DNA from: Trichoplax sp. H2
Taxonomy: Eukaryota
Assembly (NCBI GenBank): GCA_003344405.1
Contig: NOWV01000178.1
Location: 62,001-126,000 of the forward strand
Direction of reading: 5' to 3'
Length of the DNA stretch: 64,000 bases
The notes beneath the pieces were generated by a model, which worked only from the letters and a program-made list of their open reading frames with translations, made no database searches and was not told where the DNA came from. Both the position numbers and the translations under genes were made by a program. Of the stretch, positions 8,601-33,600 are shown piece by piece (the first letter of the stretch is position 1; every line of letters starts with the position of its first letter).

Positions 8601-9261
8601 CAGCAAGGTTGCTCAACTGACTAGCATTCCATTCAAAACTGCTACCAATAAATTTGAAGCTATGGCTGCTCATGATGCTCTCGTTGAAGTTCATGGATCT
8701 ATGAATGTTGTCGCTTGCAGTGTCATGAAAATAGCCAACGATATTCGTTTCTTGGCTTCTGGACCACGATGTGGTATCGGAGAGTTAATTATTCCAGCGA
8801 ACGAACCTGGCAGCAGTATCATGCCTGGCAAAGTCAATCCAACTCAATGCGAAGCGATAACTATGGTGGCCGCACAAGTAATGGGAAATCATACAGCCGT
8901 AACTATTGGTGGTAGCAACGGACATTTTGAATTGAATGTTTTTAAACCCATGATGGTGCGTAATGTACTGCATTCAGCTCGAATACTTGGCGATGCTTGT
9001 GCATGTTTCTCTACCAATTGTGTTGAGGGCATTCAAGCTAATCACGAAAGAATTAAAGACCTCCTTGATAAGTCACTCATGCTTGTCACTGCATTAAATA
9101 CGCATATTGGATACGACAAAGCATCTGAAATTGCCAAGAAAGCTTTTGCAGATGGTACAACATTAAAAGAGGCTGCGATAAGCCTAGGTCATTTGACGGA
9201 TGAACAGTTTGACGCATGGGTTAATCCAGAAAAGATGATTGGTCCAACCAAATATGCTTAA
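5688..9261 (+). CDS. FH: Fumarate hydratase (class II fumarase), ~495 aa; exons 5688-5777, 5893-6015, 7394-7504, 7587-7763, 8050-8205, 8431-9261
   Basis: Spliced translation: [14 protein letters not shown]...[13 protein letters not shown]...KYYGAQT...|...[21 protein letters not shown]...[21 protein letters not shown]...[15 protein letters not shown]...[15 protein letters not shown] (fumarate lyase signature). All introns GT-AG and in phase; AATAAA at ~9360. Confidence 0.97.
6160..7393. repeat. Degenerate tandem repeat (~250-390 bp spacing, 3-4 copies) filling fumarase intron 2
   Basis: TACA(T/C)CAGCAATCAATC at ~6633, ~6992 and ~7354; CTAG(C/T)AAGGAAT..TCA..TG...AAAATCAATC at ~6421, ~6816 and ~7144. 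Confidence 0.75.
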
Positions 9262-12603: not shown

Positions 12604-14655
12604 ATGCAAAAAATCACTAGTCATTTCGATGAAAGGTCATTACTGATTGATGAAAGCCAGTTTAGGTTACAGCTAGGGGTTAGGAAGAAATCTTTCTTTC
12701 GCGATCACAGAAAAGCAGCTTTAGTGATAGTTATTATATTGACTATCGGTGTTATTGCTGCAGCTCTTGTTCTTGGCCTTACTCTTGGTAACCATAGTGT
12801 CATTGCTGTTACACATGAATCAACAACCACTTCTCCAATAACATCCCATCCACCGGCTATAACGAATAGCTCGACGAGTGCTACTTCCATAAGCAAAATT
12901 CCAGCAACAACATCAGCTACGCAATCCAGTATAACGCCTAGCTCTACTATTGAAACAGTCAAGCCTACGAAAGAAAAGCCAACGCTATCCTTGACATCGG
13001 AAATACCTACAAAAATAACCAGTACAACTCATGAAATAGCGAGTAAAACTCATTCTAGTACCTATTCGACTACGATCCACGTTACTTTAGCAACAACAGC
13101 TCGTCCACCGACGACGAAAACAGAGCCAGCCACTTCTGTAGCGAGTACGAGTACTACGGCGAAATCGACAGTCTCCACTACAGTAAAAACGGAACCAACA
13201 ACCCATGCGGAAACTGCAACACCTGGTCATACAACTCAAGAAACAACGTGGATTACTACAGAGCCAATAACTCAAGTAGAAACGAAAGAACCTACAAGTA
13301 CATCTGAAAAGCCAACAGCAATAACTACTGTACAAACACAGCCAATAACTCATGTGGAAACGACAACATCCATTTCTACAACTGCAGCACCAACACAAGT
13401 ATCTACAGAACCGACGGTAGAAACTACGGCAAAAACAGAGCCAGCAACTACCACTAGTACAACTGAGAAGCCAACGCAAATAACTACAGAACTGACGGTA
13501 GAAACTACAGCCAAAACGGAGCCAACAACTCCAACCAAAGCAACTACCACTAACATAACTGAAAAGCCAACGCAAATAACTACAGAACCGACGGTGGTAA
13601 CTATGGCAAAAACGGAGCCAACAACTCTTATCGTAACCAAAGCAACTACTCCTAGTACAACTAAAAAGCCAACGCAAATAACTACAGAACCGACGGTAGA
13701 AACTATGGCAAAAACGGAGCCAACAACTCTTATCGTAACCAAAGCAACTACTCCTAGTACAACTGAAAAGCCAACACCAATGACGACGGCAAAAACAGAG
13801 CCAACAACGCATACAACAACTAAAGCAACTATTACTAGTTCCACTGAGAAACCAACACAAATAACGACAGTAAAGACAGAGCCAACAACTCATATAACAA
13901 CTAAAGCAACTACTATTAGTACCACTGAGAAACCAACGCAAATAACTACCGTAGTAACGGAGCCAACAATCACAGCAACTACTAGTTCCACTGAGAAACC
14001 AACACAAATAACGACAGTAAAGACAGAGCCAACAACTCGTATAACAACTAAAGCAACTACTATTAGTACCACTGAGAAACCAACGCAAATAACTACCGTA
14101 GTAACGGAGCCAACAATCACAGCAACTACTAGTAGCACAACTGAGAAACCAACGCAAATAATCACTGTACAAACGGAGCCAATAACCACAGCAACTACTA
14201 GTAGTACAACTGTAAAACCAACGCAAATAACCACCGTAAAAACAAGGCCAACCACTCATGTCGAAACGAAAGCAACTACACTTACTAGTACAACTCAACA
14301 ACCAACGCCGATAACTACAGTAAAAGCAGAGCTAACCACTCATGCAGAACCGAAAGCAACTACTAGCACAACTCGCGCTACAATCGAAATGGAATCCACT
14401 ACTCCTGTCAAAACTGAAGCAATAACTAGTACACAATCAATTAGCACCCATGCAATAACAACTATTCCATCAACGACAGTAAAGACAGAGCTAACGCATG
14501 CAGAAATTCAAACTTCAGCATCATCGTCTTCCGTTTCATCCAGTCTAAAAGCAACGGAATCAACCACCAAAAGCGAAATAAATCACACTAATACAGCTAA
14601 TCAAACTCCAACAAGCTTACAGGTAACAAAAACCACATCTGCAAAGCCTAGTTAA
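12604..14655 (+). CDS. Type II membrane mucin-like protein, 683 aa: short cytoplasmic tail, one transmembrane helix, long Thr/Ser/Pro-rich ectodomain, no globular domain
   Basis: Single 683-codon ORF; hydrophobic AALVIVIILTIGVIAAALVLGLTL after a basic stretch; repeats like EKPTQITTVKTEPTT. The ATG is 3 nt after an acceptor-like TTTTTATTCATTTAG (12600), implying an upstream non-coding exon. Confidence 0.88.
   Translation: MQKITSHFDERSLLIDESQFRLQLGVRKKSFFRDHRKAALVIVIILTIGVIAAALVLGLTLGNHSVIAVTHESTTTSPITSHPPAITNSSTSATSISKIPATTSATQSSITPSSTIETVKPTKEKPTLSLTSEIPTKITSTTHEIASKTHSSTYSTTIHVTLATTARPPTTKTEPATSVASTSTTAKSTVSTTVKTEPTTHAETATPGHTTQETTWITTEPITQVETKEPTSTSEKPTAITTVQTQPITHVETTTSISTTAAPTQVSTEPTVETTAKTEPATTTSTTEKPTQITTELTVETTAKTEPTTPTKATTTNITEKPTQITTEPTVVTMAKTEPTTLIVTKATTPSTTKKPTQITTEPTVETMAKTEPTTLIVTKATTPSTTEKPTPMTTAKTEPTTHTTTKATITSSTEKPTQITTVKTEPTTHITTKATTISTTEKPTQITTVVTEPTITATTSSTEKPTQITTVKTEPTTRITTKATTISTTEKPTQITTVVTEPTITATTSSTTEKPTQIITVQTEPITTATTSSTTVKPTQITTVKTRPTTHVETKATTLTSTTQQPTPITTVKAELTTHAEPKATTSTTRATIEMESTTPVKTEAITSTQSISTHAITTIPSTTVKTELTHAEIQTSASSSSVSSSLKATESTTKSEINHTNTANQTPTSLQVTKTTSAKPS
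13180..14370 (+). repeat. Coding tandem repeats of the mucin (imperfect ~25-35 aa units, EKPTQITT/KTEPTT)
   Basis: Recurrent ACTGA(G/A)AA(A/G)CCAAC(G/A)CAAATAAC and AC(A/G)GAGCCAACAAC words, including near-exact ~120-bp duplications (13560-13770, 13830-14160). Confidence 0.9.
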
Positions 14656-15792
14656 GCATCAACAACCGCTACATCCTCAGAGCCAAAAGCTATCATTGTA
14701 GATTAAGAATCGACTACTCCTCTGAGTAATGAAACATTTTATCCCATCTCAACGCTGTCTGTCATTGAAAACTATCATTGCGATTGCTAAATAAATCGAC
14801 TGATTTTCTTCTAAGCGCGATAACGACGTACAGAACGCCAGCGATGTTAGAGATAGAGCAACATCTCATATCAAGTCGTAACCTTTTCCGATTCTATTAA
14901 TTAATTAAAGGTGTTTTCTATGTACTGCTTTAGTAGTATGCATAATGATAAATAATAGCTTGCAAATACATAAAAAATTAGGGGCAATATCTTGAATGTA
15001 AACCATCTAACTGACACTTATTGACCACGTTGGATTACTAGCTATATACCATCACTAACTGTGATCATGAATATAATCACACAGTCTAAAAATGAGTATG
15101 TATAATATAGATGCTATCCATTTAAACTGTATCAATTAAATTAAGACATAATGTCATACCTATATCTGAGAAATGAAAATTCCTTTTACCATCGTAACAT
15201 ACGATCACATTGGGTGTTGTATTTACGAAAAGTGAACTCTTATCCAATATACGAGTACAAATTTATCAAAGTAAATCTTTTAGGCAAACACTACATCATG
15301 TAGGTTGTTTTAATGTGATCATTATCAGCTAATAATAATTATTACAATTAGCATATATTACAAGTAGCAACGCTTACTTCTCAGTAATTTACTAACAGCG
15401 AGAACAGATAACTTCATAAAACAATTATATAATATAACAAGAAGGATCTCTTGGCGACAAATAGTAATGCTAATTACTACTCGTATGATTAAATCATCGT
15501 ACACTAGTTTAAAATGAACTTAGATACAAAAAAATATTTTACGAACAGAGAAATTCTTCGCTTGAAACCTTTCAACAACTACAAATAAAGGATATTCTAA
15601 ATACTTTCCTTTAGTTTATAGTAGGAATATTATAATAAAGTAAATTATAAATAAGATAAGTGATAAATTGGTGCTAATACCCACTATTAATAACCCTTTA
15701 GAAAATGATCTAACAGATCCAATGAATAAATGCATAATTGTTAGTAATATTTCTGGTTATTATTCGTTCACCAACTGCAATCCTTGTAGTAA

Positions 15793-18700
15793 TCATGGGT
15801 TGGCGGCGAAAAAATTTTTTACGGTCTCTCGATATAAGGATACCCAGTTTATTCTACTTGAAATGGTAGCAATAATATCATCCTTAACACTGGGAGGGAT
15901 AATTTTTGCCACATCTCTATGAAAGAAATTCTGTACCTTTAAAAAGAAGAGCGGCAACACGTCAAATTTTAATTTGATTCAGTCTAAAGAAAACCGATGG
16001 TAGTATAGCTACTATAAATGTACGCGTAAGCTACTGAGAATATACGCAATTTCTTGAAATTGTAATGATTGCCTACTCTTTGCAGGTTATCTTTATCTAC
16101 ATATCTGGCAGCTGTCACGTTAAGTAGTTGCTCCATAAATGTTACTTTGAAGTTAAATCTGATAAAGAGTGAATAAAAATGGTAATAACAGTATGAAATT
16201 AGAGTGATTAAATCGAAAATCGATCGCTAAAGAAACTATAAGCATTTATTGAAAAATACCTTTGGTATAGGGCCTCTAAATTATTAGTTACAAAAGGCCA
16301 AGCCAACTGGAGATTTAACAAGCCACGACTAGCCATAAAGTCAAATGCTTTAAGGGCTTCGAGCGAGCTCATTAACGTTCTATTAAGAGTCATGTCTAGA
16401 TACCTAATCATGAGTATGATGAATGGAGAATATTAATATCAGATATGTCAACAACCTTGGAGTGGTTGAGTCATTGGAAAGTCCTGATAGGACAGCATCA
16501 GTAAAATGATGGTATAACAGATTATTCATAAATCTATTAATACCTTCTCCAAAGTGTAACGTTTTTGCTATAGGTCAGAGCTTCAAGATAAAGTAATCGA
16601 TCAGATGGAACTGTACTAGATTTAAACATATCGAGGACCTTTTCCCATGCAGCTTCATCAGTATCAGCAATTCCATACTTGAAAATGATTGATTTTAAAT
16701 TAGCAGGTATTCTATAATGAAAAAAGGCGACATTGGCAAGTTAATAAAGTACACCAATAAAGTAAAGGTAGAAAACTACAGTAAATTACATGGGCTGTAC
16801 AAGAGTACGCTCACTAAATCATTATGATGAAGCTATATAATATAAAGACATTCATTATACTAACGTTGTATTGCTATCAGAATATAAACTGGATAGGAAT
16901 TGCTCTTTAGTATAATTTCGGCACTGCTTATCCTCAAGGCAATAGTAATCCATGGCAACAACTCGTGTTAATCTAATAAGAAATTAGTAATAATTACAAT
17001 TACAATATGATAATAGGGTGCCGTACCTTGTAAGGTCATATAAAGAATATGAAAAATAGAAAAAACTTGCAACAATCTTAGATCTACACAGTTACCTTTT
17101 ATTATAGTCTCCAACATTCTTAAAAGTTAGCTCATTCATGATATTTTTTACTAATCTCGAGTGGTAATCCTGAAACATTATAACGGAGTAGATAAAATAT
17201 GCGTACGTCAATTGTAACTATAAATTATTTCGTGTAAATTGATGAATAAACGAATCTTTGAGCAACAAAGGTAGTTTACCTGATACAATGCTTGATCAAT
17301 AATGAAATATTTCACTATGTTAGCAATGAAGTTCATGTTTTGTTTATAGGTAGCCCACGGCAAAAATAAAGCGTGTTGTTGTGTTATAGATTTCGACATA
17401 GTTAATGTTTGTACATAAGATAAACGACCAAGCCTACAATTTCAGTCGAAGCGCAAAAGAATCGGTTAAGTATTTCCACTTAAAAGTAAAGAAATTTTAT
17501 ATAATCATTATTACGCTGTCATCAAGTAATATACTGCTAAGCGATAATCGTTCGTGTCTAAAAGTAGGCATTTAAGTGCGCCTTACTTAGCAAAAGCGAA
17601 GGCATCATCCATCAACTTTGATAATCCAGTAGATAACATGGCCTAAGATACCGCATATATTTACGACATTTTAATGCTGGTAATACGTTAATAAAATTAT
17701 TTTATGGTAAATTTACTAACAATAGTATTGGATGGCAATTTAGGGATCAATGCTGTATAGTTATTCCACGTTGCAGCCGGATACAGAACCCGATAAAATC
17801 CAAATAATTTCACGTTGGCGTTTAACAGGATTGAATTCCCAATATCAATTGGTGTTGAATCTAACCCAATAATGTAATTAGAAGATGGTTTGCTCGTCAT
17901 TATTATTCGTTCATGATTCTTCATGATTCATTGTAGAATTTGAGAAGACATTGACAATATTATATTTTACTTCTATACGATTACACAGTATACATTCTAG
18001 GTTAAGATATCTTACGTACTCATATTGCCTAAATCTGGATTAAGGACGATCAAATTATTTTTAGAAGAAAAATTCATTGCAAGAAAGCTATTCCATGTAA
18101 AAGGTACGTACCATGAATATCTAGATAGATAACAATTATTTAGAAATGTAAATTATTTACCAGTCATTAGTTGAAAATAAAGTACTAATGTAGCATAAAT
18201 TTTTTAAACTGTTAACACTAGAAGTTAATGACGATCAGGTACAATATGCATTATAAATACTCCTATCTTGAGTATATAATTATAGAATAAAAATATTCAC
18301 CCGGACATTGGCACGCTGTCGCCAATAATATTTGATCGATAAATATCAATATACTGCGACTGACTTAGCAAAAGTTCACTTTGATTACTTTGAGTCGAAG
18401 ATACGTTAACATATGGGTACCCAGGCTGAGTGAGCCACGGTTGTATCAGCTGATTAAAATCAAATTTGGTGGTGACCTACAACAACAAAGTATGTGAAAT
18501 TTAACTTAGGCGTTGCGTCTATAATAGCTAAGTTGTATGTCACTGGTTGTAAATATAATTGATATACGAAGTACAACGATTTTTATATCAATGTACCATT
18601 TCTGAATAAAACTTCAAAATATATAATCTATGAGATGATAACAAACTAGACTAGGAGTTTAGAAGAAATATTGTACCTCTGGTGGTAGTAACTTCCAAAA

Positions 18701-21700
18701 TTCAGATACAGAGGTTACAAGATTTCTTGAATTTTTTGCAAATTTCTGCGGGAAGAAAATTAAGACAAGGTTTAAATTGGGGTTATTATTGGATGCTAAT
18801 GAATAGGTACACTCGAGATAAACTACTGCATTAGCGTGATTTATTACATATAATTTGGTTACTCCTACTCAAACGTATCCGTGCCAGATATACACGTATA
18901 CTGTAATACTGGAAATTGCCATGATCTCAAAAGAACAACCTGAATCAATTCATCAATATTGATGGAATTATCGTAGGCTTGCAAGGTTCTAAGTAAAGCA
19001 TATCCCTATGGCAATGTAAAGATAAAATTATGTCCAGTATCCCTAAAAATTACTTTTAATGAAAACATATCAAATGATTTACATTCATTAATTTCATCAA
19101 GCTTAAAATAATTATAGTTCACCTTTTCCCTGATGAGGTAGAAATTGTTAGCTGACCAGCTATCAGCAGTAGTGTCTTGTCCTTGAAGGGGTGCGGTGTA
19201 CGCAGAACTATCCATTGCTAAGGCCGATTGCATTTCTAAGATTTTTAAATCATCAATCTAGATTGATAGAAAAAATTACGCTTACATGGTCGCTTATTAT
19301 TTTTTGAATTCGTAACATATGGATCAACTATCGTTCATAAATTAATTTGTAAGAAATTCATTATAAAGTTCTTTTAAATAATGTTATATATTGCAGCAAT
19401 GATATCAGTAAAATTAGTTAAACTTACCAAATCGTTAATGCCCATCGCAGGTTGCCAACCTGACGTAAGTCCGTAATATCTTGCATGCGACTTCATCGCT
19501 TCTTGTAACCAATACTGATCCCACCAGGCCATAGAAAATGAACCTCCAAGCCACTAAATAATATTTTAATAGAACGATAAAATTAATTGCTAGCTACGTA
19601 GATAACAAGGTAACTTCCTATTTTACCACCTATTTCAATTAATTAATTTAAGATTGATTACTATCAATTATACTGTATTTAAACAATTTTATTTGCAGTA
19701 AGCTTGTAAAGTGATTCGTCTAGTTTTGGCAACTTGAAAGTTAATCTAAAATCAATTTAGTTGTACTTTCTATTGTGGTATATACGTATATTTTTTGTAC
19801 TGTATTCATACGGAACATAATAAGGCTTACTTGGTAAGATATACCACTCCCTAAAAGCATGCGTTTCCAAGCTAGCTCAGCATCTGGCGTCGATAAAGGA
19901 TCATACAGCAAAGCATCAGCTTTGTAAAATAAGATATTAGTATGAGCTTGAAGATGCCTATAAAAGTTCGGAATAGCGACCATGTCTAAATGGCGATTTA
20001 GTAAATAAATAAAATTTAAAGTTAGTAAACATTTTAATTCATTCTGAACGTTGATATCGTTGATACATTATTGATTTTTGGTATCAAGTTATCAAGTCAT
20101 GAATCGATATCCTATTCTATCGATCCTAATATTAATTCAATGCAAACAGTAGATCCAATCATCAATGCATCTAAGGTCATTCTAATCAAATGCAATCGGG
20201 TTTAAATCAGATGTACGCAGCCTAAAGACTTTGCACTAGAGGGAGTACTTAATATGATTTGTACGCGATTGTATATCAAATTGTTTTTAAGTTATTCTGC
20301 CAGAGACTTCTCTTATTCTATCAAGAAGTCTATGATTATGCTGAGGTAATTTACATATTACAGTTAAAGTACTCGAAAATCTAATTAAAAATAGAACTAA
20401 ATTAGTTCTTAAAATTATGTGTTGATAAGTTAAATTACGCAATCCTTGCGTCTAGTAGTTAGGAATAAGGTGAGTTTTATACAACGCCGCACAACCTACC
20501 CAGGGTCATAAATGGATAGTCTAACTTGAAATATTCCTGTTGATATAATGAAGCCATAAGTGCGGCAGTATCCAATGTTGATTTGCCATCCATAGATTGA
20601 TCAGGTGGAGTCCAGAGTCTAATCTGATTAGCATAATATTATTTGCGTTATTACTTTCACGTTTATCAAATCAACCATCAATATAAATTGAAGGATTTAA
20701 AGTTTCGACGTTAGGATAAAGAGCGCTGCAAGTCTAATACTGGCAATATTAAAACTGTAGAACGAAATGGACTGAAAAATATTACTACTTAGACTAAGAT
20801 GAATGCACTATTTTATTCGAAATCATAAGAATAATAACATACTTTGAAAATTTATCGATACATGCTTTTTCAATTTTTATTACTATACCTTGCAGTGCAC
20901 AAGATTCTATTCAATTGTAGTACATCGTTAAAATTGACAAGTGATCGCAGTACTTACATATATATTTGACATGTTGGTTTGTACCGGAACTAGTGTAGGT
21001 TCGAAATCCAAGACAGCAATAGCAAGATTGTGTGGACTGATAAGAGTGCTCTCTACATTATTTCATGATATTAAAAATGCCAAGAGAAAAAAACGAAAAT
21101 TCTATTAGTGTCTACAAATCTGTTGAGTTCTAGGATCAACGTTATCATACAATCTTAAACTTGTTACCATTAAATCGATCTTGAACCAGGCCATCTTTCA
21201 ATACCTTGCTATCGAATAAACGGCCATTAAATAAGGTAGCAGAAGTTGTTGTTGCATTTCGAAACATAGTTAACTGAAATTTAGCCAAAAATGAAGGCTC
21301 ATCAAAACAGGGAAAGATTAGCCGTGCGTTGTTTGGGTAGGAATTGGATAGGAAAATTTTTCTTAAATTTGATGATGGGCTGTTACTAAAATGTGATTAT
21401 ACAAAGAGGTCATAAAAAAGAAGACATCTTGAGATTAGAATTGTATAACAAAGTAACTCCTGATTAGATAAAATTCGATTCTTCTATACAAAACAACTTT
21501 TATTTGCATAGTTAATTAATCTATCGCAAGGTGATATAAATGCAGTACTAATGAAGTATTGATTACAACTCTTGTGTTCAATTGTTATACTCGTAGAAGT
21601 CAAGTACAGTATCTTGGTGATATTCATACCGTCGTAATTGAATTCGATTAAAGTAGTGATTAGAACTACTAGAAGTATTCAAGTATAAGCTAAAAATAGT

Positions 21701-23348
21701 ATCTCGACAATATTCATACCGTAGTCATGAAGTCTATAACTTTGAAGTAGTGACTAGAACAAGTGTTGAAGTGGAAGCTAAGAACAGTATCTCGATGAAA
21801 TTCATGCCGTAGTCATGAAGTCTACAATATTGATATAGGGGCTTGATTAAATTACAAGCGTTGAGTGGAAGCTAAGGACAATATCCCCATGATATTCGTA
21901 CCGTAGTCATAAAGTCTATAATACTGATGTAGTGACTAAAGAACTACAAGTATATCAGCGTCAGCTAAGGACAGTATCTCGATGATATTTATACCGTAGC
22001 CATGAAGTCTATTGAAAAAGTCTGTCTAGAAAAGTTTAAATGGAAGCTAACTACAATATCTCGATAATCACCTTTCCTGGTCACTGGAGAAATAAGATTG
22101 AGTATAAATGCCTTGCGGTGCATTCTGAATCGACGAAGCGAAATTATAGAAAAGAAAATATTTGCCAATAGCTTGCATCCGTTGCAATTTGATATAATAA
22201 TAATCGTTAGCAGCATAATATCCAACTTTCTCAATGACAGGGACCGGCCCTGAATGATAATGGCCAATTTTGGGAGTGTCCGTTATCGTGATATTCTTGG
22301 CGTGGACGATAATAATATCAGTGGGTTGTGTAATCATAACAGTAATTTGAACTTCACCCACAATTAAATTGCGTTCTGGATGTAATTGTAGCATCAGTTT
22401 ATAATTTTCTGGTTTAATAGACGTCCGTAGACGAGAACTTGCTAATTCAGGAAAAGGTATAGAAATCGGTGTGGAGGATGGCGTTGACGTGTTCGCCGCT
22501 GGACTGGATGGCGTGCTTGGTTTAGCCGTTGGCAATTTTGTTGCTGGGGTTGTCGCTTGGGTCTTTGGTGTTGTAGCTTGGGTCATTGGTGTTGTAGCTT
22601 GGGTCTTTGGTGTTGTAGCTTGGGTCATTGGTGTTGTAGCTTGGGTCATTGGTGTTGTAGCTTTGGTCATTGGTGTTGTAGCTTGGGTCTTTGGTGTTGT
22701 AGCTTGGGTCATTGGTGTTGTTGCTTGGGTCTTTGGTGTTGTAGCTTGGGTCTTTGGTGTTGTTGCTTGGGTCATTGGTGTCGTTGCTTGGGTCTTTGGT
22801 GTCGTTGCTTGGGTCTTTGGTGTTGTTGCTTGGGTCTTTGGTGTTGTCGCTTGCGCTGTTGGCAATTGGACTGATGGCGTTGCTGTTTTTGTAGGCGTGC
22901 TTGCGGTGGTAGGAGGCAATCTTGTCGATGTTGTTACTCTACTACTAGTAGGCAATTTTGCAGAAGTCGGTGTACTACCAGTCGCTGAAGTAGGTTTAGT
23001 CGCCGTGGTTACATGGGCCGATGATGATGCTGTCGTCTGATTTGGACTACTTGTCGCCTTGGATGTTGCATGTGTAGCAAGAGACATGGTTGTACCTTGC
23101 TGAGTGCTATTGGCTAAACTTGGCGTGGTGGGACGAGTTGGTAATGTTGTTGAATTGGAATGAGACATATTTTGTAGTGCTCGAGGTATAAAAACACCCA
23201 TTAATATGCCACCAATACCAAGAATAACAATCGCCACAAGGGCAATAAGTAAACCTTTCGTATGCTTCTTATACCATGGTTTATTGCGATTGATATTAAA
23301 GATAATATCACTTTCATCAATCAGAAAGGATTTTTCAGCGCTAAACAT
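15793..23348 (-). CDS. M1 (aminopeptidase N-like) fold type II membrane protein with mucin stalk, ~1195 aa, 20 exons, predicted catalytically inactive
   Basis: Exons 5'->3': 23348-22072, 21361-21168, 21052-20958, 20623-20500, 19985-19831, 19553-19428, 19257-19123, 19005-18940, 18745-18677, 18476-18301, 18120-18020, 17860-17721, 17642-17587, 17433-17280, 17169-17096, 16972-16865, 16711-16544, 16403-16260, 16158-16077, 15936-15793. Total 3588 nt, all GT-AG, no internal stop. M1 hallmarks: RLRTSIKPENYKL, ARLIFPCFDEP, WWDQYWLQE, WLTQPGYPYV, GFYRVLY, LMDDAFAFA, ERAP1-C-like C-terminal helices. Confidence 0.92.
21590..22071. repeat. ~90-bp degenerate tandem repeat (5-6 copies) in intron 1 of the M1-like gene
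   Basis: ACAGTATCTCGATGATATTCATACCGTAGTCATGAAGTCTA-like unit at ~21607, 21697, 21785, 21877 and 21971, with a partial copy at ~22053 abutting the splice donor. Confidence 0.85.
22548..22853 (-). repeat. 21-bp coding minisatellite encoding (TQATTP[K/M])n mucin stalk, ~14 copies
   Basis: + strand GCTTGGGTC(T/A)TTGGTGTTGTA repeats; translation TPKTQATTPKTQATTPMTQAT... Confidence 0.95.
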
Positions 23349-24152
23349 GTTGATTTTCTGCCTTCAAAACTTCTTTCAAGGTGGCTAATAGAGCTCAGTA
23401 TTGCAGAAATAGCTGTATGGAACTATTCTAAATTGATTGGACTAGGAATTGAGATGAAAAATGGATTCAATGGAGGATTATTGCCATTTACGAACGACTT
23501 GATTTAATTTCTAAACTAACTTGAAGGAGAAACACCGCCCAGACAAGTGTTCTGACGGCAAAGAGCATGCAAGAGTAGGACAATTCAATCAAGTTGCTGC
23601 TATTGCGCACGCGTATCAGACTACGTCATTTTACTTCTCCAATCCGGAACAGATTATTCGACACTCGACGGTCAACATCAGCGGCGATGACCGCAGGTGA
23701 CTGACATCCGTTAGCACTCCATGAGTCACGTGAGCGGATCTATGTGAGTTAACATAGGTTATTACCACTGCTCCATCAGCTGTCTTCGATTGGCTCTTCA
23801 GGTGTAGAGACTCATAGCTCATACTACGAACAATATTCAACATACTATGAGCTAGATAGTATATTGTGCTAACAGAACATAACGTAATATGATAAATAAA
23901 ATTAATTAATTAATTAAATTCATTTACGTACATATAGAATATAATGTCATATATAATAAATTAATTTGATTTGATTAATTCATTTATTCATGAATAATAC
24001 GGAGCAGTGTACGAATATATTAAATTAAATTAAGCCCAATTTCGCAGACTGTTCCGTATTATTACGCAAAATCATATTGAATAATGAATGGTATGAGCTG
24101 TGAGCTATGGACTACTAGGAGAAGCCCTTCGGTTTTCTTCTGGGGGGGGGGG

Positions 24153-24172
24153 NNNNNNNNNNNNNNNNNNNN
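24153..24172. other. Assembly gap flanked by poly-G runs
   Basis: 20 N with G homopolymers on both sides. Confidence 0.95.
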
Positions 24173-27440: not shown

Positions 27441-30400
27441 TTAAAATCCTGGTATATGACAATACGATTCAAGAGAAGATAAAATTATGTACAAAAGCCA
27501 TAAGAATATAAAAAAGACTGCTGTTGCATACTTTGGTCCTCTTGGTCCTCCTAATTCACCACCGACAGATTTCGTCCTCCTTAACATTAAAACTGCGATA
27601 CAAACAATGGCTACAGCGCAAAATATGGTCACTGAGAAAGCCAATGAACCAGAAGGGACGTAAAATTTTTCACCTTTTATTGCATTAGCAACAGCAGCGA
27701 CGCACCAAGCGAGACCTAAGCCCAAGAATACATTAACAGAATTACTACCGGTCACATTACCGATGGAAGAATCGGCGTATTTGTCATTAACTGCTGCAGT
27801 TTTGCTGGCAAATGTATCTAGAATAACGGGTATACAACGTTTATTAGGTTAGTATGATAACACAATCACCTTCCTATCATGCTAGAGACATGCGAGAATT
27901 TTACCTGGTAGACTTGTACCAAGAGCAACAAAAGTTATGGCAGTTACACTATCTTTCAGGCCAACAGTACAACCGAAATGCGAAGCTAAATCGCCAATAA
28001 ATGTTGTTAAGATACCAATCATAATAATAGATACACAAAAGCAGGCCCATCCTCCCCAGATTTCCGTTGGTGGTACAAGAGCGAAAATTAATTTCCAAAA
28101 GATAGTTAAGTAATGCATGATGTAGTCAGTGCAAGTCGGTTTAGTCTCTTCATCATCATCATCATCGTCATTATCACCACCATTAACTGTCAAAGCAGCA
28201 CTAAAATCAATTATTCATCAATGGATAAAAAAATGATGTTAGTATTAGCAGTTACACGAGAATTCAATCATGCTAACATAGGTACGAGAGCGTTTCGAAT
28301 GGAAAATAATTCCGATAATTTAGAAGTAATTTATACCGAAATTGTTCGCGCCAAGTTGACGTCCCGATAGCCATAGCTAAATTAGCTTTTTTTAACAATT
28401 TATCAACCGTATTTTTAAACTCGTGACTTTCAATAATTGTAACTTCTGCTTCTTTATAGGGGCCCAATGATGGATTAACATCAATAGGTTGATTTCCGGT
28501 CGTTTTAGCGACGTGATTTCTTTCCTTTTCAATACGTTTCTTATCCTTAAAGTATGGTTCACCCAAAAGGACGTAGAAGATTTCATTCTTTTCATATTCT
28601 TCGTCATCAACGATATGCACCTCAATGGTTTTGCTAAAGATACATGTTAAAAATGTAATAGAGTCTAATTAATAAGCAAGTTGTACAATAACATCTAAAT
28701 CTTCCTGCCTTAGCTAATAGTTATAATTGTTGTCCAATACAGTAGTTATACAAATCAATTATAAACAAGTGATAGATTGATAGTTACTAGTAGTACTTAC
28801 GAAGTTTCATCGTTTTTAAATTCAAGTTCACCAACTGCATCTTCATAATCGTCGCCGCCTCCCTTAGCTGTTCCTTCCTTAGTATGATAAGGCACTCGAA
28901 TGGTACCACGTGCACCAGATTTACGCTCGACTGTAAGTGATAATGTTCCAGCGGTTTCAATAACTGAATATTTACTTTCAGAGAAAGAAAATACACCAGG
29001 ATGATCATCGTCTAAGATAACAACCGTTGCTGTTGATGGTGACTCTATTACACATTTTTGCTCATTATCTGTAGTGGAAACAAATTTGGCATTGCTCAAC
29101 AAAACATAAAAGTACTCATCTTCCTCGTAGATATCATCATCTATAATTGTAATTTTGATATCTTTACGACTCTCTCCAGCTTTAAAACGCAATGTGCCAT
29201 TAGTAGTTACATAATCTTCGCCGGAATTGGCTGTTCCATCTTGTGTTTTGTAATCAACAGTTAGAACGTTATTTAAGTTACCAGTTCGTTCAACAGTTAC
29301 ACCTACTGTACCACAGTTTTCTAAAACTGTGTACTTCTCTGGTGAGAAGTAGATCTGAGTAAGACTGCATTTCTCAATGTCTTCCGGATCTACATTTCCA
29401 TCAGGGTTAGCTGGAAGGCTCATTTTTCGCTGCTTGATTACATTTCCACTTCCAGTGAGTTTACGCGTGGCTTGAATGCGATAATAAGCACGTGATTTCG
29501 GTTGATATTTTAAAGCTTCATAACTAGCTAATTCTTCAATTTCTTTTGCAGTGGCATTGGGATGATTTTGCTTAATCTCTTTAACAATTTGCATAGCCTT
29601 TTTTCGACGCATTTCATCATTCTTTTCTGAATCTACATCATCGATGCTATCGACATCGTACATTGGGTTATTCTTACAGACAGAATTTAAACCTTCACTA
29701 TCGCGCTCTTCTTTAGGAGATCTCATAATAATAGAATCAGGTTCGACTATGACAGCGCGATTTTTTCCATCAGCACGATATTTTTTGCTTAATTTCTTAA
29801 ATGATAGGAGCTGACGATCAGCAACCCAAGCAATGGTAACTAATATCGGAAAGAAAAGTAAAGTAACGACAGCTTCCCAAATATCGATGACATCACGTGA
29901 TATCCCTTTCAATATCAACAGCAACCATAAATAAGCAAAGACTGAACATGATGCTGTAATAAAGAATACTGATAAGTGTTTAATTCGTCGAATTTCATCA
30001 TCTGGAATAGCTAATACACAAAGTGCAGTGATGATCAATAAATTAAAAGCCGCAGAACCAACGATGGTTGAGGGACCAAGGTCTCCAGGTTTAAAATTGT
30101 TACCACAAATTTCAATTATTGATAATAAAATTTCAGGAGCAGACGAACCCAATGCCATTAAAGTAAGATTGGAAACAGTTTCATTCCAGACACGAACGCT
30201 GATCCTTTTATACTCGCCGTTGCTCATTTTAACCTTGATAAAACGCTCTTTCGACGTTATAATTTCAATTGCAGACATAAAACGGTCAGATATTATAGAT
30301 ACTCCGATGAAGAAAAAAAATAAACTAAAAAAGTAGACGATAGTGCGACCAACTCTTTCGCCAGTACTTAATGGTAAAATATTTCCTTTAGAGTCCTTTG

Positions 30401-30617
30401 GATATGGCCAGTGAGGTAAAAATAAGCCATTTTTACATCGAGTTGTGGTATTGCATGCGATGAGCCTTTTTTCAGCATCAGATAGAGTAGGAGTAGAAGT
30501 TGAATTTATTGTGGAGACATCGCGTTCACTAATGATACTACTACCAAGTGTAGGATCGACTTTAAAGTTAAGCACGACGACGGCAATCACCCATAAAAGG
30601 GCACTAAATAATTGCAT
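27441..30617 (-). CDS. SLC8A: Sodium/calcium exchanger (SLC8/NCX), ~928 aa; exons 30617-28801, 28633-28337, 28200-27905, 27817-27441
   Basis: Signal peptide; alpha-1 repeat (NLTLMALGSSAPEILLS...GSAAFN); XIP-like RQLLSFKKLSKKYRA; two Calx-beta domains (IIDDDIYEEDEYF, ILDDDHPG, IVDDEEYEKNE); alpha-2 repeat (FVALGTSLPDTFASK...GNVTGSNSVNVFLG). Acceptor CTCTTACAG lies just upstream of the ATG. Confidence 0.97.
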
Positions 30618-33600
30618 CTTTAGAGGCTGTAAGAGTACGTTGAAATGGTATTAGTTTAATGGATAGTACAAAAGAGAAAGAAAATACAATCATCAATAAT
30701 TTTAAACTTGAAAAAATGATACAAGTAAGCACATCAAGTTATCCTCGTCATTTTCGATACAATCAGTGACAAATACCTAAGATGATGCAATAATTGCTAA
30801 GCTGTCCTGGTTCTTGCGTATTTAACCTTAATCAAAGGAAAGAGATTAATAAATTACCGAGGTTATTATGATAAATCTATCCATACGAGCATCAAAAAGC
30901 TTGTGTGTTTTTATTCCTTCAAATAAATGATATCGCATCATAATTAGTTGATGTGTCGCATATAGCGTTTACTGTTTTATATTTATTTGATATGAAGTCT
31001 TGTTACAATCAATTCGATAAAGGAAATCGCAATTTTTTGGGGGAGTTGGTGCTAGTCTAGTTCATGCACGCTTTCATGATTAGATTAATAATTAATTGCA
31101 TAGCTGTAGTATTTTTAAATAAAAAGCATACATTATTATAAATGGCATCACAGATGATATTATAGTTAGCATTGTCATTAAGCCAGATGAGTACTATCAT
31201 GAGAAATGGAATGATGTTGATGCAGTGATGGGTAATGTACTAGTTGATAATTTTGGTCGGCCAATGCTCCTAAACCAGTCGGCAATGAAACTACTGCTAT
31301 TACAGCTGTACACCGTACAGTTTGTTAAGAAGAGGTTAGGATTCTCGGCAGTAAGTTAATTTGATAGCATGATTGAATTTTAAATTCCTATACAATACTG
31401 GCAGATTTCTAATCGTAATCAGGCCAAACGATTTTCGATTAAGAACAGGCTTACACTACTGGTACAATATTTCAGATGCGACTATCGTTGGTGATAATTT
31501 CGGCTACTTTAAAACTTTGCAACATTGACACTGCGGATTTTGCAAGAGATTCGGGTGCTATCGTAAAAGACAATCATTGTTTTGTTGAAAATGAATGCTA
31601 TAGCACCGTTCACGGGAGAAAAAGTACTGCAGTATTGTTGCTAGCGTCGTCGTTTATTGATTTTACAATACCAACGCTCTCTTTTACAGTAGTAAAGTAC
31701 ACGAAGGTTTACAATAACAGGCATTGCATAATGGATTGAAATCTCTTCTAAAACCCTGCTTTGTATCGTTTATTATGGTAGATAGAACAAGGCAATAAAT
31801 AATTTAGTGTCTATTTGTGGAGAATCTGGATTTGGCCTATATTAAATTGTCTTTTTTAGTCTAACTAAGGGTAGTATTCTTTATTCTATGGCCAATACTT
31901 TACGATAAAATGATATCGTGTATTTTCGGGGGTGAATTCGAACGTCAATATTAGATCAGTTGGTATAGAAGTACAGTACAGTATTGATTGCAACCATGAG
32001 AGAGAGAAACGTTATCTTCTTATTCATGATATTTATAATTAATGAATGCTTCTCAACGTTGCGGACACATTGGGATAAGAATTGAATCAAGCGAAAGGGA
32101 TAGCAGTTTGGATGTACAGTACTGTACAGTCGTATATCATTGACTGCAGCTGTCCATACAGTATTGTACACCTGATTACGGTCTGGTCTGAAATGGTTTC
32201 CAATTTTAACAGTGCAGTGTAAGCAAGCTAACATGGTAGAAGTTGCTGTGAGTTCAAGAAGTTCTATGCATACAGTAGTAATAATAATTCAACTAACATT
32301 GGTGAAAAGGTTTGAAAGGTTATCGAAAATAGCGAGGAGGACATACATCACTCCTGAGAGCGAACCTTGCATGATCTTGATTGAGAAAATCATAGCCTGA
32401 GGATGAATAGTAGTACTGGCGTTGTCGTGGAATAATGGATACAATGGCGTTCTGTTTTACCACAGGCTGTCCATTGCAGACGCTCCTTGCGATTGAATTC
32501 ATAATAAAAAAGCAAATTGAAAGCACCAAAGTCTCCTTGCATTGCTCATCTTATTGCCTACATAAATGTTATTTTACCACCCTCGTACATTATTCCATCG
32601 CTATCCAATATTGAAATCAGTCGAGTACGATCTCGTACCATTTGAAAGGATTGCTTGTCATGGGAACCATGGAGACAGAAAGGAAAAAGCTGGTGAGTTG
32701 TTTCTTCTATCTCTATGACGGGGGTACTATAGTACAGTACAGTACATCATCTTTCATTTCCTTTCACATACGTTGACAGGGACAAAATGGAAGGAAAACT
32801 AACGTGCAAATACAGTCGTTGAAACCCCTATTTTACGAAAATAACATGACTCCATGGTGAATTTGCCAATCTTCCAGCCTGGGCTTGTCTATGACGGACT
32901 ACCAAAGATATCTTGAATTAAACTCGGGAAGATAACCACTGTGGACACTGGCAGACTACAGTCGAGTCGAACATGAGATCCGACCATTGTACTGTAGCAT
33001 GAGTGACTCTGTACTGTACGTTACAGTACAAATATTAGCACAGTGCGATTGCGTAAACTGTTGTTGATGCACTGCGTCATCAGCAAGCTTTGACGGCATA
33101 CTGTACGACTGAAGCAGTACAGTGATAGCCGTTCATCCAGGACAGCACGAATAGTACGGTACTGTAGAGTAGAGTGTAGAGTACATGTTACTCTACACTC
33201 TAAGACTCTCCAGGTTTCCACTGGGCTTTTGCCAATAGTCTAACTTGTCCATAGTGTACGACTTGTTCATTTATCCCGTACCAGTAACACCCCTACTGTC
33301 ATGCCCTACAGTAACATTGGAATACTGTACACTGTAAAGTAGGTGGTTGCATCGAAGATGAAAACTGGGCCAGGACTGAAATTGAAAGGGACAAAGGCTC
33401 CCTAAAATGGTTCATTGGATACTCTACTGTTTAAAAATGATGCCGTGATACAATTCTGTATGATAATATGATGATGATATTCGACGATAGAATAGTATGG
33501 ATTTTATTCAATTGAAAAGTCCATCGGTAGAAAGAAATGGGGATTTTGGATGAGTAGGTGTCATGACGAAGATGGCATGCATGCCATTTCCAATTCATGA

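What the first reader, a model, noticed from the sequence alone, without database searches (positions are those of the whole stretch)
19123..19985. Intact M1 aminopeptidase homologue with a dismantled active site (pseudopeptidase)
Seen: the 20-exon frame is open with canonical splice sites, so this is not a decaying pseudogene. Aligned by eye to the M1 consensus (PDF..GAMENWGL..Y.E..LL.D...VIAHELAHQ|WFGNLVT..WW..LWLNEG), exons 5-6 read PNFYRHLQAHTNILFYKADALLYDP...LLGSGISYQ|WLGGSFSMAWWDQYWLQEA. So GAMEN becomes HLQAH (19956-19942) and HExxH becomes SGISY (19848-19834), losing both Zn-binding His and the catalytic Glu. The catalytic Tyr of 'ISYxKG' reads 'IREKG' (exon 7/8 junction). Only the distal Glu ligand remains. 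Established: GAMEN, HExxH(x18)E and this Tyr are required for M1 catalysis. Inference: a Zn-free, non-catalytic peptide-binding or adhesion receptor held out on a long O-glycosylated stalk.
Basis: partly seen in the sequence, partly recalled or inferred. Interest (0 to 1): 0.85.

Follow-up and report, generated by a model that had tools for sequence, protein, structure and literature searches.

The report
Catalytically dead M1 aminopeptidase homologue, Trichoplax
A placozoan (Trichoplax) gene annotated as glutamyl aminopeptidase keeps the whole enzyme fold and is expressed, but has lost nearly every residue needed for zinc binding and catalysis, so it is most likely a non-enzymatic surface protein of a kind already known in other animals.

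Summary
The window is Trichoplax sp. H2. The minus-strand gene 23348..15793 has 20 exons, all with GT..AG introns, and encodes the annotated 1203-aa 'Glutamyl aminopeptidase' RDD38414.1.

Against human aminopeptidase A (4kx7, E 9e-67):
- GAMEN reads HLQAH.
- HExxH reads SGISY.
- The catalytic Tyr is Arg708.
- The N-domain Glu is Tyr442.
- Only the distal Glu641 survives.

Spliced RNA contigs from two studies show 14 of the 19 introns removed exactly as modelled, including all those around exons 5-7. No alternative exon carries HExxH or GxMEN.

The fold is intact: AF2 pLDDT 88, TM 0.86-0.90 to APA, ERAP and APN. Family-conserved positions are kept at 20/26 (N domain) and 14/16 (C-terminal domains), but only 15/46 in the catalytic domain. 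This points to a maintained pseudoenzyme, not a decaying pseudogene.

Dead M1 homologues are already known, for example C. elegans MNP-1. Among the nearest relatives, 14 of 187 units also lack HExxH+E, scattered across the tree. I rate it a new member of a known kind, of moderate-to-low interest. A binding, adhesion or receptor role and O-glycosylation of the stalk remain inference.

The parts
15793..23348 (-). Coding span of the gene: 20 exons, 3612 nt, 1203 aa plus TGA. Identical to RDD38414.1 'Glutamyl aminopeptidase [Trichoplax sp. H2]'.
   Evidence: All 19 introns are GT..AG. 14 of the 19 are seen as exact joints in spliced RNA contigs of runs X12 and X8.
23319..23336 (-). Cytoplasmic tail motif EKSFLI (aa 5-10), which resembles an acidic dileucine sorting signal. 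The homologous tail of the neighbouring gene reads ERSLLI.
   Evidence: Sequence, coordinates, homology of the two N-termini (37% over 59 aa, E 3e-9). The [DE]xxxL[LI] motif definition is recalled, not tested.
23187..23255 (-). Hydrophobic signal-anchor / transmembrane segment, aa 32-54 (GLLIALVAIVILGIGGILMGVFI), preceded by KKHTK. The predicted topology is type II.
   Evidence: Sequence, coordinates. Topology is inferred from the positive-inside rule and from the family's usual type II topology; no TM predictor was run.
22437..23183 (-). Mucin-like stalk, aa 56-304: Thr 33%, Pro 14%, Ala 13%, Ser 11%.
   Evidence: Composition. O-glycosylation is inferred only.
22545..22853 (-). Tandem array inside the stalk: 21-nt unit x 14.7 copies, 93% matches, encoding (T/K)QATTP(K/M) heptads.
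   Evidence: (TRF).
21337..21339 (-). Tyr442, at the position of the N-domain Glu/Gln that anchors the substrate N-terminus in active M1 enzymes (APA 'HEPTDAR').
   Evidence: Alignment. E or Q stands here in 105 of 128 homologous units. Coordinates. The role of this residue is recalled.
19831..19985 (-). Exon 5 (aa 572-623). It carries both degenerate motifs.
   Evidence: The flanking joints 19985/20500 and 19553/19831 appear in RNA contigs.
19942..19956 (-). HLQAH (aa 582-586) in place of GAMEN.
19834..19848 (-). SGISY (aa 618-622) in place of HExxH. Both His ligands and the catalytic Glu are lost.
19428..19553 (-). Exon 6 (aa 624-665): WLGGSFSMAWWDQYWLQEA. The WW..WL.E helix is kept.
   Evidence: Joints 19553/19831 and 19257/19428 appear.
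19500..19502 (-). Glu641, the retained distal zinc-ligand Glu, 19 residues after position 622.
19123..19257 (-). Exon 7 (aa 666-710), ending ...NNFYLIREK.
   Evidence: The joint 19004/19122 (cut +1) appears.
19129..19131 (-). Arg708 in place of the catalytic, transition-state-stabilising Tyr.
   Evidence: Tyr stands here in 57 of 57 aligned homologues and in 95 of 105 units. Coordinates.
15793..18120 (-). Exons 11-20, encoding roughly the ERAP1_C domain (Pfam match aa 861-1164, 147 bits).
   Evidence: In aa 769-907 (end of the catalytic-domain Pfam match, domain III and start of ERAP1_C; exons 10-13), 14 of 16 family-conserved positions are kept.

Best explanation
The gene encodes a maintained, expressed pseudoenzyme. 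It is a type II membrane protein whose ectodomain keeps the complete four-domain M1 aminopeptidase fold but cannot bind the catalytic zinc or hydrolyse peptides.

Shown:
- The fold is intact.
- Both His ligands, the catalytic Glu, the GAMEN Glu, the catalytic Tyr and the N-domain Glu are replaced.
- The transcript is spliced as modelled.
- The degenerate motifs are identical in T. adhaerens H1.
- Family-conserved positions are lost selectively around the active site, while those of the N- and C-terminal domains are kept.

Inferred:
- The protein works by binding rather than catalysis, as a surface scaffold, adhesion molecule or receptor module.
- It is held about 250 residues from the membrane on a Thr/Pro-rich, probably O-glycosylated stalk.
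- It possibly cycles through endosomes via an acidic-dileucine-like motif in its short cytoplasmic tail.
- The residues that clamp a free peptide N-terminus are also gone. Whatever it binds is therefore probably not bound in the canonical aminopeptidase manner.
For: Identity and fold:
- 100% match to RDD38414.1 of Trichoplax sp. H2.
- Pfam Peptidase_M1_N 90 bits, Peptidase_M1 71 bits and ERAP1_C 147 bits, all above gathering.
- phmmer to human APA 4kx7 gives E 9e-67 over aa 305-1199.
- The AF2 model of aa 294-1203 has mean pLDDT 88 and pTM 0.89, with 10-residue blocks over the former active site at 90-94.
- Foldseek TM 0.86/0.90 to 4kx7, and similar values to ERAP1/2, IRAP and APN.

Dead site:
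- Alignment, codons.
- These columns are 93-100% conserved in 57 homologues.

Real gene:
- 20 exons, all GT..AG, open for 1203 codons in a window that is 30-42% G+C per 2-kb step.
- 14 of 19 introns appear as exact joints in spliced contigs of X12 (RNA-Seq on record, study P5) and X8 (4516-nt contig, study P3). X1 runs straight through the introns.
- No HExxH or GxMEN is encoded in any frame of either strand within 15793-23348.

Constraint:
- The T. adhaerens H1 orthologue P0007 has identical motifs and only 2 substitutions within the blocks that align gap-free, outside its model defects.
- Conserved-column retention is N domain 20/26, catalytic 15/46, C-terminal 14/16. Fisher p = 5e-6 for catalytic against the rest.
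- Identity to homologues, relative to their identity to each other, is 0.47 in the catalytic domain and 0.71-0.75 in the others.
- Among the listed between-strain differences, the M1 body has 6 nonsynonymous and 6 synonymous changes where about 9.3 nonsynonymous are expected (binomial P = 0.034). The stalk has 7 nonsynonymous and 2 synonymous.
- All four 1-nt indels and the 3-nt indel lie in introns. The only exonic indel is 6 nt (table 4).

Precedent:
- C. elegans MNP-1 is an M1 homologue presumed inactive for lack of zinc ligands, yet it has biological roles (passages in PMC10368266).
Against: - No biochemical evidence of any kind was obtained: zinc content, activity, ligand, glycosylation and localisation are all untested.
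- The selection evidence is thin. Only 40 of the 82 differences were displayed and classified, counts are small, several strains are pooled, and P is only 0.034.
- No orthologue of intermediate divergence was found, so a proper dN/dS could not be computed.
- The H1/H2 pair is too close to be informative.
- The RNA evidence consists of assembled contigs. These show presence and splicing, not level, protein or cell type.
- The terminal branch is the longest in both trees (2.13 against a median of 0.76; 4.26 against 0.98). That is also what relaxed constraint would give.
- HLQAH puts two His residues next to the retained Glu641, so a rearranged metal site is not formally excluded.
Confidence: 0.8

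Rival explanations
1. It is a recently disabled enzyme gene that is still transcribed and spliced but no longer under selection: a young unitary pseudogene whose frame has simply not yet been hit.
For: It has the longest terminal branch of all rows in both trees. No orthologue beyond the nearly identical H1 copy was found. The polymorphism test is weak (P = 0.034 on an incomplete list).
Against: - 31 of 46 family-conserved catalytic-domain positions are replaced, against only 8 of 42 in the other domains (Fisher p 5e-6). Decay without selection would not spare the N- and C-terminal domains.
- A 1203-codon frame and 38 splice-site dinucleotides are intact despite that amount of change.
- All five indels that are 1 or 3 nt long are intronic, and the one exonic indel is 6 nt.
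- Synonymous changes are over-represented in the M1 body.
Confidence: 0.07
2. It is still a hydrolase, or another kind of enzyme, with a rebuilt active site. For example, a metal could be held by His582 or His586 of HLQAH together with Glu641 and Tyr622, or the chemistry could be metal-independent.
For: Two His residues sit on the former GAMEN strand beside the retained Glu641. The pocket region is modelled with high confidence. His at the first or last GAMEN position also occurs in relatives with intact HExxH, e.g. HAMEN and GAMEH rows.
Against: - No general base remains: the HExxH Glu is Gly619 and the GAMEN Glu is Ala585.
- The transition-state Tyr is Arg.
- No known M1 member works this way (recalled).
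- Geometry could not be inspected, because the tools do not expose model coordinates.
Confidence: 0.05
3. It is an annotation or assembly artefact: the true transcript uses other exons, or the window sequence is erroneous at the motifs.
For: The older T. adhaerens model of the same gene (P0007, 654 aa) is visibly wrong. It is truncated at the N-terminus, has a 55-residue gap, and reads through intron 19.
Against: - Spliced RNA contigs from two studies reproduce the exon 4/5, 5/6, 6/7 and 7/8 joints exactly.
- The only difference listed in exon 5 is 19915 A>C (Asp595Glu), outside the motifs, with the caveat that only 40 of 82 differences were displayed.
- The independent H1 assembly encodes identical motifs.
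- No alternative exon exists.
Confidence: 0.02

Closest known systems
Human glutamyl aminopeptidase (APA/ENPEP, PDB 4kx7) and the ERAP1/ERAP2/IRAP/APN group of metazoan M1 ectoenzymes
   Same: - Same four-domain fold over the whole ectodomain (E 9e-67; TM 0.86-0.90).
- Type II anchor followed by a stalk.
- FPCFDEP, AIP.F, LLYDP, WW..WL.E, KG and W..Q.GYP motifs are kept.
   Different: - GAMEN, HExxH, the catalytic Tyr and the N-domain Glu are all replaced.
- Only 20-25% identity to any relative.
- The stalk is about 250 aa of Thr/Pro-rich repeats.
- The annotated name 'glutamyl aminopeptidase' is not supported. Subfamily placement changes between trees.
C. elegans MNP-1 (matrix non-peptidase homologue 1), an M1-family non-peptidase
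   Same: [quoted passage not shown] This comes from passages of PMC10368266. The primary papers (Tucker & Han 2008; Craft & Forrester 2017) were seen only as references there.
   Different: - MNP-1 is 781 aa by that paper; this protein is 1203 aa with a long mucin-like stalk.
- Orthology was not tested, because the MNP-1 sequence was not fetched.
- Degenerate M1 units arise many times independently in my trees, so common descent is unlikely.
Degenerate M1 units in arthropod and amphioxus proteins annotated as aminopeptidases (P0138 Menopon, P0144 Neodiprion, P0155 Frankliniella, P0123 Agrilus, P0069 Stegodyphus, P0029 Cordylochernes, P0134 Branchiostoma, units of P0011/P0112 Prorops)
   Same: - 14 of 187 units among the nearest relatives lack an intact HExxH+E.
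- 4 of them (P0112, P0145, P0138, P0029) lost both His and the Glu, as here.
- 12 of the 14 still keep the distal Glu, as here.
- P0138 and P0144 also have Arg at the Tyr position.
   Different: They are not close relatives. They scatter over the tree, with at least 5-6 changes of state needed. The only join of this protein with one of them (P0134) is flagged as a long-branch meeting. None is characterised as far as I know.
Yeast Tma108, the only M1 entry in the pseudopeptidase review PMC11266112
   Same: It is an M1 homologue with a proposed non-enzymatic binding role (passages).
   Different: [quoted passage not shown] It is cytosolic and ribosome-associated. Here the site and the N-terminus anchors are gone and the protein is membrane-anchored.
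TAF2, a TFIID subunit with an M1-like fold (recalled, from no call)
   Same: A long-established example of the M1 scaffold reused without catalysis.
   Different: It is a nuclear, soluble subunit of a transcription complex, with no anchor or stalk. Not compared here.

Membership tests
Peptidase family M1 (homology and fold) | Peptidase_M1_N, Peptidase_M1 and ERAP1_C domains in order, above Pfam gathering scores | tested here: met
   90.3, 71.2 and 147.3 bits against cut-offs of 25.8, 27.7 and 38.2.
Peptidase family M1 (homology and fold) | Four-domain M1 architecture superposable on solved structures | tested here: met
   AF2 pLDDT 88 and pTM 0.89. Foldseek 4kx7_A TM 0.86/0.90, E 3e-50, with ERAP1/2, IRAP and APN alike.
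Catalytically competent M1 aminopeptidase | HExxH zinc-binding and catalytic motif | tested here: not met
   SGISY at aa 618-622. H, E and H are 57/57 in the aligned homologues.
Catalytically competent M1 aminopeptidase | Third zinc ligand: Glu 19 residues after the motif's second His (HExxH-x18-E; the WLNEG Glu) | tested here: met
   Glu641 in WLQEA.
Catalytically competent M1 aminopeptidase | GxMEN exopeptidase motif (the Glu binds the substrate alpha-amine) | tested here: not met
   HLQAH at aa 582-586, with the Glu replaced by Ala585.
Catalytically competent M1 aminopeptidase | Catalytic Tyr stabilising the transition state | tested here: not met
   Arg708. Tyr is 57/57 and 95/105.
Catalytically competent M1 aminopeptidase | N-domain Glu/Gln contacting the substrate N-terminus | tested here: not met
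   Tyr442. E or Q stands here in 105 of 128 units. The residue's role is recalled.
Catalytically competent M1 aminopeptidase | Zinc content and hydrolysis of aminoacyl substrates | not testable with these tools
   Requires recombinant protein.
Glutamyl aminopeptidase (APA/ENPEP) orthologue, as annotated | Groups with APA to the exclusion of other M1 subfamilies | tested here: inconclusive
   FastTree puts it at the base of a 26-row clade of invertebrate ERAP1-like and APA-like proteins. The IQ-TREE mixture model puts it beside a long-branch amphioxus APN-like row, flagged as a long-branch join. Best PDB hit is APA, but at only 22% identity.
MNP-1-type M1 non-peptidase homologue | M1 fold with zinc ligands missing | tested here: met
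.
MNP-1-type M1 non-peptidase homologue | Orthology to C. elegans MNP-1 | not tested
   The MNP-1 sequence was not among fetched proteins under any name seen. Degenerate states are polyphyletic.
Mucin-like (PTS) stalk | Long Pro/Thr/Ser-rich tandem-repeat region | tested here: met
   aa 56-304 are T 33%, P 14%, S 11%. The 21-nt unit repeats 14.7 times.
Mucin-like (PTS) stalk | Dense O-glycosylation | not testable with these tools
   Inference from composition only.

The most novel reading that the evidence does not exclude
This is a placozoan-specific dead M1 ectodomain that has become a new kind of surface receptor. It would be held far above the membrane on a mucin stalk and cycle through endosomes via its dileucine-like tail, capturing food-derived or signalling ligands for the feeding epithelium. 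A variant of this reading is that its HLQAH/Glu641 pocket forms a rewired metal- or ligand-binding site. The homologous 'tail + anchor + stalk only' gene lying tail-to-tail 1.1 kb away would then belong to a small family of stalked surface proteins built on the same N-terminal module.
Probability: 0.1. Interest if true: 0.55.

Novelty: new member of a known kind. Interest (0 to 1): 0.3.

Why it matters
- It corrects an annotation. RDD38414.1 and B3SAK7_TRIAD are named as aminopeptidases but almost certainly are not enzymes.
- It adds an early-branching animal to the list of lineages that have recycled the M1 scaffold for a non-catalytic surface role.
- The census shows this recycling is recurrent: 14 of 187 related units are degenerate, at least 5-6 independent events are needed, and the distal Glu is usually spared. 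This may interest people who catalogue pseudoenzymes. The 2024 pseudopeptidase review lists only Tma108 for family M1.
- It does not open a long-standing question, and the mechanism remains to be found experimentally.

Tried and rejected
- Whole genome: none is held. I therefore could not count Trichoplax M1 paralogues or check whether active copies exist.
- Earlier scan notes: nothing by place, sequence or words.
- Divergent placozoan orthologue for dN/dS: none found.
  - The word-based searches returned only the protein itself, the near-identical H1 fragment, and relatives at 21-26% identity (6 of 7902 candidates at E <= 1e-20; 2 of 5465 at E <= 1e-10).
  - The exhaustive search found nothing above 29% identity apart from the query itself (best 150 of 4810 listed).
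  - That library is clustered at 50% identity, so a closer orthologue could be hidden.
- Alternative exon restoring the motifs: a six-frame regular-expression scan of the whole window found no HExxH or GxMEN inside the gene span. The few matches elsewhere lie in stop-ridden frames.
- Subfamily assignment: two trees disagree, so I do not assign one.
- Common origin with other degenerate M1 units: rejected as unsupported. The labels need 6 changes in both trees, and the one join with P0134 is a flagged long-branch meeting.
- Literature:
  - 'TRIADDRAFT_61294' occurs in no held paper.
  - A search for Trichoplax plus aminopeptidase gave 22 papers, of which 15 were listed. None is on this gene, judging by title and abstract only.
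  - PMC5399540 is not held.
  - Supplements such as single-cell atlas marker tables are closed and may hold this gene's expression pattern.
- Runs X5 and X1 gave no spliced joints and look like DNA. They were used only as the unspliced contrast.
- Complex prediction (homodimer) and the protein-atlas search were not used, because no claim here depends on them.
Full report
**What the window is.** A translated search with the large first exon returned one protein at 100% identity: P0001, 1203 aa, 'Glutamyl aminopeptidase [Trichoplax sp. H2]', accession RDD38414.1. The window is therefore placozoan nuclear DNA. It is 30-42% G+C per 2-kb step. No whole genome is held for it, and the scan's earlier notes hold nothing on it.

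**Checking the observation.**
- tblastn of P0001 on the window maps the gene to the minus strand, 23348 to 15796.
- A splice-aware walk reproduces P0001 exactly with 20 exons, 3612 nt including the stop. Every intron is GT..AG.
- Exons 5, 6 and 7 are 19985-19831, 19553-19428 and 19257-19123, which is the finding's span.
- Read directly and by codon: HLQAH is aa 582-586 at 19956-19942, SGISY is aa 618-622 at 19848-19834, Glu641 is at 19502-19500, and Arg708 is at 19131-19129.
- phmmer against all PDB chains gives human aminopeptidase A (4kx7) as best hit, E 9e-67, aligned over aa 305-1199.
- In that alignment GAMEN lies over HLQAH, HELVH over SGISY, WLNEG over WLQEA, and the Tyr of ISYSKG over Arg in LIREKG.
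- The Glu of APA's N-domain 'HEPTDAR' lies over Tyr442. I recall that this Glu contacts the substrate's free amine.

**Is it more than chance or an artefact?**
- In an alignment with 57 homologues (A1), the five GAMEN columns are 93-100% conserved. The two His, the Glu and the Tyr are 57/57, and the query differs at all of them.
- In a wider census of the 155 fetched relatives that matched the query segment (188 M1 units), HExxH+E is intact in 173 of 187 units that cover it. The GAMEN Glu is present in 167 of 186, and the Tyr in 95 of 105.
- The independently assembled T. adhaerens H1 orthologue (P0007, TRIADDRAFT_61294 / B3SAK7) carries identical motifs.
- A six-frame motif scan found no HExxH or GxMEN anywhere in the gene span on either strand, so no alternative exon could restore the site.

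**Expression and gene model.**
- I laid four public runs on 15600-23500.
- Contigs of X12 (RNA-Seq on record, organism label B, study P5) and X8 (organism label A, study P3, one 4516-nt contig) skip introns with CT..AC ends on the plus strand, which is GT..AG on the gene's strand.
- The table lists 14 joints that equal 14 of my 19 introns. They include 19985/20500, 19553/19831, 19257/19428 and 19004/19122 (cut +1) around exons 5-7. Five further joints were not displayed, so I do not count them.
- Contigs of X1 run straight through introns, so the joined form is not simply genomic.
- These are assembled contigs. They show that a spliced transcript exists in two studies, not its level.
- The older H1 gene model is defective. 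It starts at aa 466, has a 55-residue gap, and reads into intron 19. The 15933/16074 joint supports the H2 model.

**Fold.**
- Pfam finds Peptidase_M1_N, Peptidase_M1 and ERAP1_C in order, all above gathering. The catalytic domain is the weakest relative to its usual strength.
- AlphaFold2 on aa 294-1203 with the 58-row alignment gives mean pLDDT 88 and pTM 0.89.
- The 10-residue blocks over the former GAMEN strand, the HExxH helix and the Tyr position score 90-94.
- Foldseek against the PDB gives 4kx7 at TM 0.86/0.90 and E 3e-50. ERAP2, APN, ERAP1 and IRAP follow at similar values.
- The scaffold is whole.

**Pseudoenzyme or pseudogene?** Four lines of evidence bear on this.
1. *Pattern of loss.*
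   - 88 columns are at least 90% conserved among the 57 homologues and have a query residue. The query keeps 20/26 in the N domain, 15/46 in the catalytic domain and 14/16 in aa 769-907. Fisher's exact p is 5e-6 for catalytic against the rest.
   - Identity of the query to the homologues, divided by their identity to one another, is 0.47 in the catalytic domain and 0.71-0.75 in the other three.
   - Unselected decay would not spare FPCFDEP, WW..WL.E, KG, W..Q.GYP and the domain IV positions while replacing nearly everything around the metal site.
2. *Amount of change with an intact frame.*
   - The terminal branch is the longest in both trees (2.13 against a median of 0.76; 4.26 against 0.98).
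   - Even so, 1203 codons and all 38 splice dinucleotides are intact.
3. *Differences between strains.*
   - Of the 82 single-base differences, 40 were displayed, and I classified those.
   - In the M1 body (aa 305 onward) there are 6 nonsynonymous and 6 synonymous changes. With 77.5% of sites nonsynonymous, 9.3 nonsynonymous are expected, and binomial P = 0.034.
   - In the stalk there are 7 nonsynonymous (6 codons) and 2 synonymous changes.
   - This is a small, incomplete and pooled sample, and I treat it as weak support.
4. *Indels.*
   - The four 1-nt indels and the one 3-nt indel all fall in introns.
   - The only exonic indel is a 6-nt insertion at 23019 in the stalk, present in all four runs.
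   - Together these make a maintained gene much more likely than a decaying one.
   - A proper dN/dS needs a more distant placozoan orthologue, which none of the searches returned.

**Where it sits in the family.**
- The exhaustive search (query P0007) found 4810 relatives at E <= 1e-3. Nothing other than the query itself exceeded 29% identity among the 150 best hits listed.
- FastTree on 115 single-unit rows puts the protein at the base of a 26-row clade (98*). Ten rows of that clade were looked up. The eight that carry a descriptive name are ERAP1-like, ERAP2-like or glutamyl aminopeptidase proteins of molluscs, a brachiopod, amphioxus, a hemichordate, an echinoderm, a tunicate and a scorpion. 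One is an unnamed nematode protein and one is an unnamed assembly.
- An IQ-TREE mixture-model tree of 45 rows instead joins it to the other very long branch, an amphioxus APN-like degenerate protein. The program flags this as a possible long-branch artefact.
- I therefore leave the subfamily open. The annotated name 'glutamyl aminopeptidase' is unsupported.
- Degenerate units (14 of 187) occur in a louse, sawflies, a thrips, a beetle, a spider, a pseudoscorpion, parasitoid wasps and amphioxus (10 of the proteins concerned were looked up).
- On both trees the degenerate label needs 6 changes, and at least 5 are forced by starred branches. Loss of the site is therefore recurrent, and the Trichoplax case is one more instance.
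- 12 of the 14 degenerate units keep the distal Glu, as here, which suggests it has a structural role.

**Anatomy outside the M1 body.**
- The N-terminus has a 31-residue tail, then a 23-residue hydrophobic segment (aa 32-54) preceded by KKHTK. I read this as a type II signal anchor.
- Next come aa 56-304, with 33% Thr, 14% Pro, 13% Ala and 11% Ser. This region includes 14.7 copies of a 21-nt unit.
- There are 19 N-x-S/T sequons and only three Cys.
- The tail contains EKSFLI, which fits the acidic-dileucine pattern [DE]xxxL[LI] as I recall it. IRAP, an M1 relative, is also sorted by dileucine signals (recalled). This is a lead, not a test.

**How it most likely works.**
- Shown: an intact M1 scaffold without zinc ligands, general base, transition-state Tyr or N-terminus anchors, which is transcribed and spliced and conserved outside the active site.
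- From established knowledge of the family, HExxH-E, GAMEN and the Tyr are required for catalysis, so it cannot be an aminopeptidase.
- Inferred: it acts by binding, presented on a long and probably O-glycosylated stalk at the cell surface, and possibly recycles through endosomes.
- The loss of both N-terminus-clamping acids suggests that its ligand, if it is a peptide, is not held in the canonical way.
- The strong conservation of the N domain and the C-terminal region (aa 769-907) suggests those surfaces matter, for ligand binding or dimer contacts. Dimerisation of APN and APA through domain IV is recalled.

**Comparison with what is known.**
- C. elegans MNP-1 is an M1 homologue presumed inactive for lack of three of the four zinc-site residues. 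It has roles in cell migration and intestinal defence. I read passages of PMC10368266 and saw the primary papers only as references.
- The 2024 review of pseudometallopeptidases lists only yeast Tma108 for family M1, and Tma108 keeps nearly all its site residues (passages).
- TAF2 is a further M1-fold non-enzyme (recalled).
- The kind is therefore known, and this is a new, lineage-specific member with an unusually long mucin-like stalk.
- No held paper mentions TRIADDRAFT_61294. Single-cell atlas supplements, which might give its cell type, could not be opened.

**Verdict.** The 'pseudopeptidase' reading is well supported (about 0.8). The receptor/adhesion role and O-glycosylation are inferred. 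I rate it a new member of a known kind, with interest 0.3.

Noticed in passing
window 12604-14655 (+): A single 683-codon ORF encodes a cytoplasmic tail, a hydrophobic anchor and a long Thr-rich tandem-repeat stalk (units of 69-147 nt), with no M1 domain. Its first ~65 residues are homologous to the N-terminus of the M1 gene (37% identity over 59 aa, E 3e-9, including ERSLLIDES against EKSFLIDES). It lies tail-to-tail with the M1 gene, its stop about 1.1 kb from that gene's stop. This exact protein is not in the 15-billion-protein collection. It could be a partial inverted duplicate of exon 1 or a member of a small family of stalked surface proteins.
   Followed up: partly
window 15600 leftwards (X8 contig): The 4516-nt spliced contig of run X8 continues 1475 nt beyond position 15600. 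If it is collinear, it overlaps the 3' end of the plus-strand stalk gene. Either the 3' UTR is long or the assembler merged convergent overlapping transcripts.
   Followed up: no
window 23019: All four runs laid carry a 6-nt insertion (GATGAT on the plus strand) relative to the window, inside the stalk-coding part of exon 1. It is in frame.
   Followed up: partly
window 21602-22012: Intron 1 (21386-22071) holds a tandem repeat of an 88-94-nt unit, 3.5-4.5 copies at 72-76% matches.
   Followed up: no
P0007 (T. adhaerens TRIADDRAFT_61294 / B3SAK7): The H1 gene model of the orthologue is defective. It starts at aa 466 of the H2 protein, has a 55-residue gap (about aa 783-846 of the H2 protein), and reads through intron 19 into 'GNHYNFKKLRIF...'. 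UniProt names it 'Aminopeptidase'.
   Followed up: yes
window 8431-9261 (+); 27441-30650 (-); 58038-60581 (-): The neighbouring genes are unrelated housekeeping types: fumarase C-like (Lyase_1 + FumaraseC_C), a Na+/Ca2+ exchanger (Na_Ca_ex, Calx-beta) and a calcineurin-like metallophosphoesterase. There is no other M1 paralogue in the window.
   Followed up: partly
window 2076-2125, 2428-2447, 24153-24172: Three runs of N (assembly gaps). The last lies about 800 nt upstream of the M1 gene's start codon.
   Followed up: no
P0009, P0010, P0011, P0016, P0112, P0145 (relatives): Several of the best-scoring relatives are giant proteins of 2600-4087 aa with three or more tandem M1 units. The three I looked up (P0009, P0011, P0112) are from parasitoid wasps. 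Some units within one protein are intact and others degenerate, e.g. P0011 units 2 and 3.
   Followed up: partly
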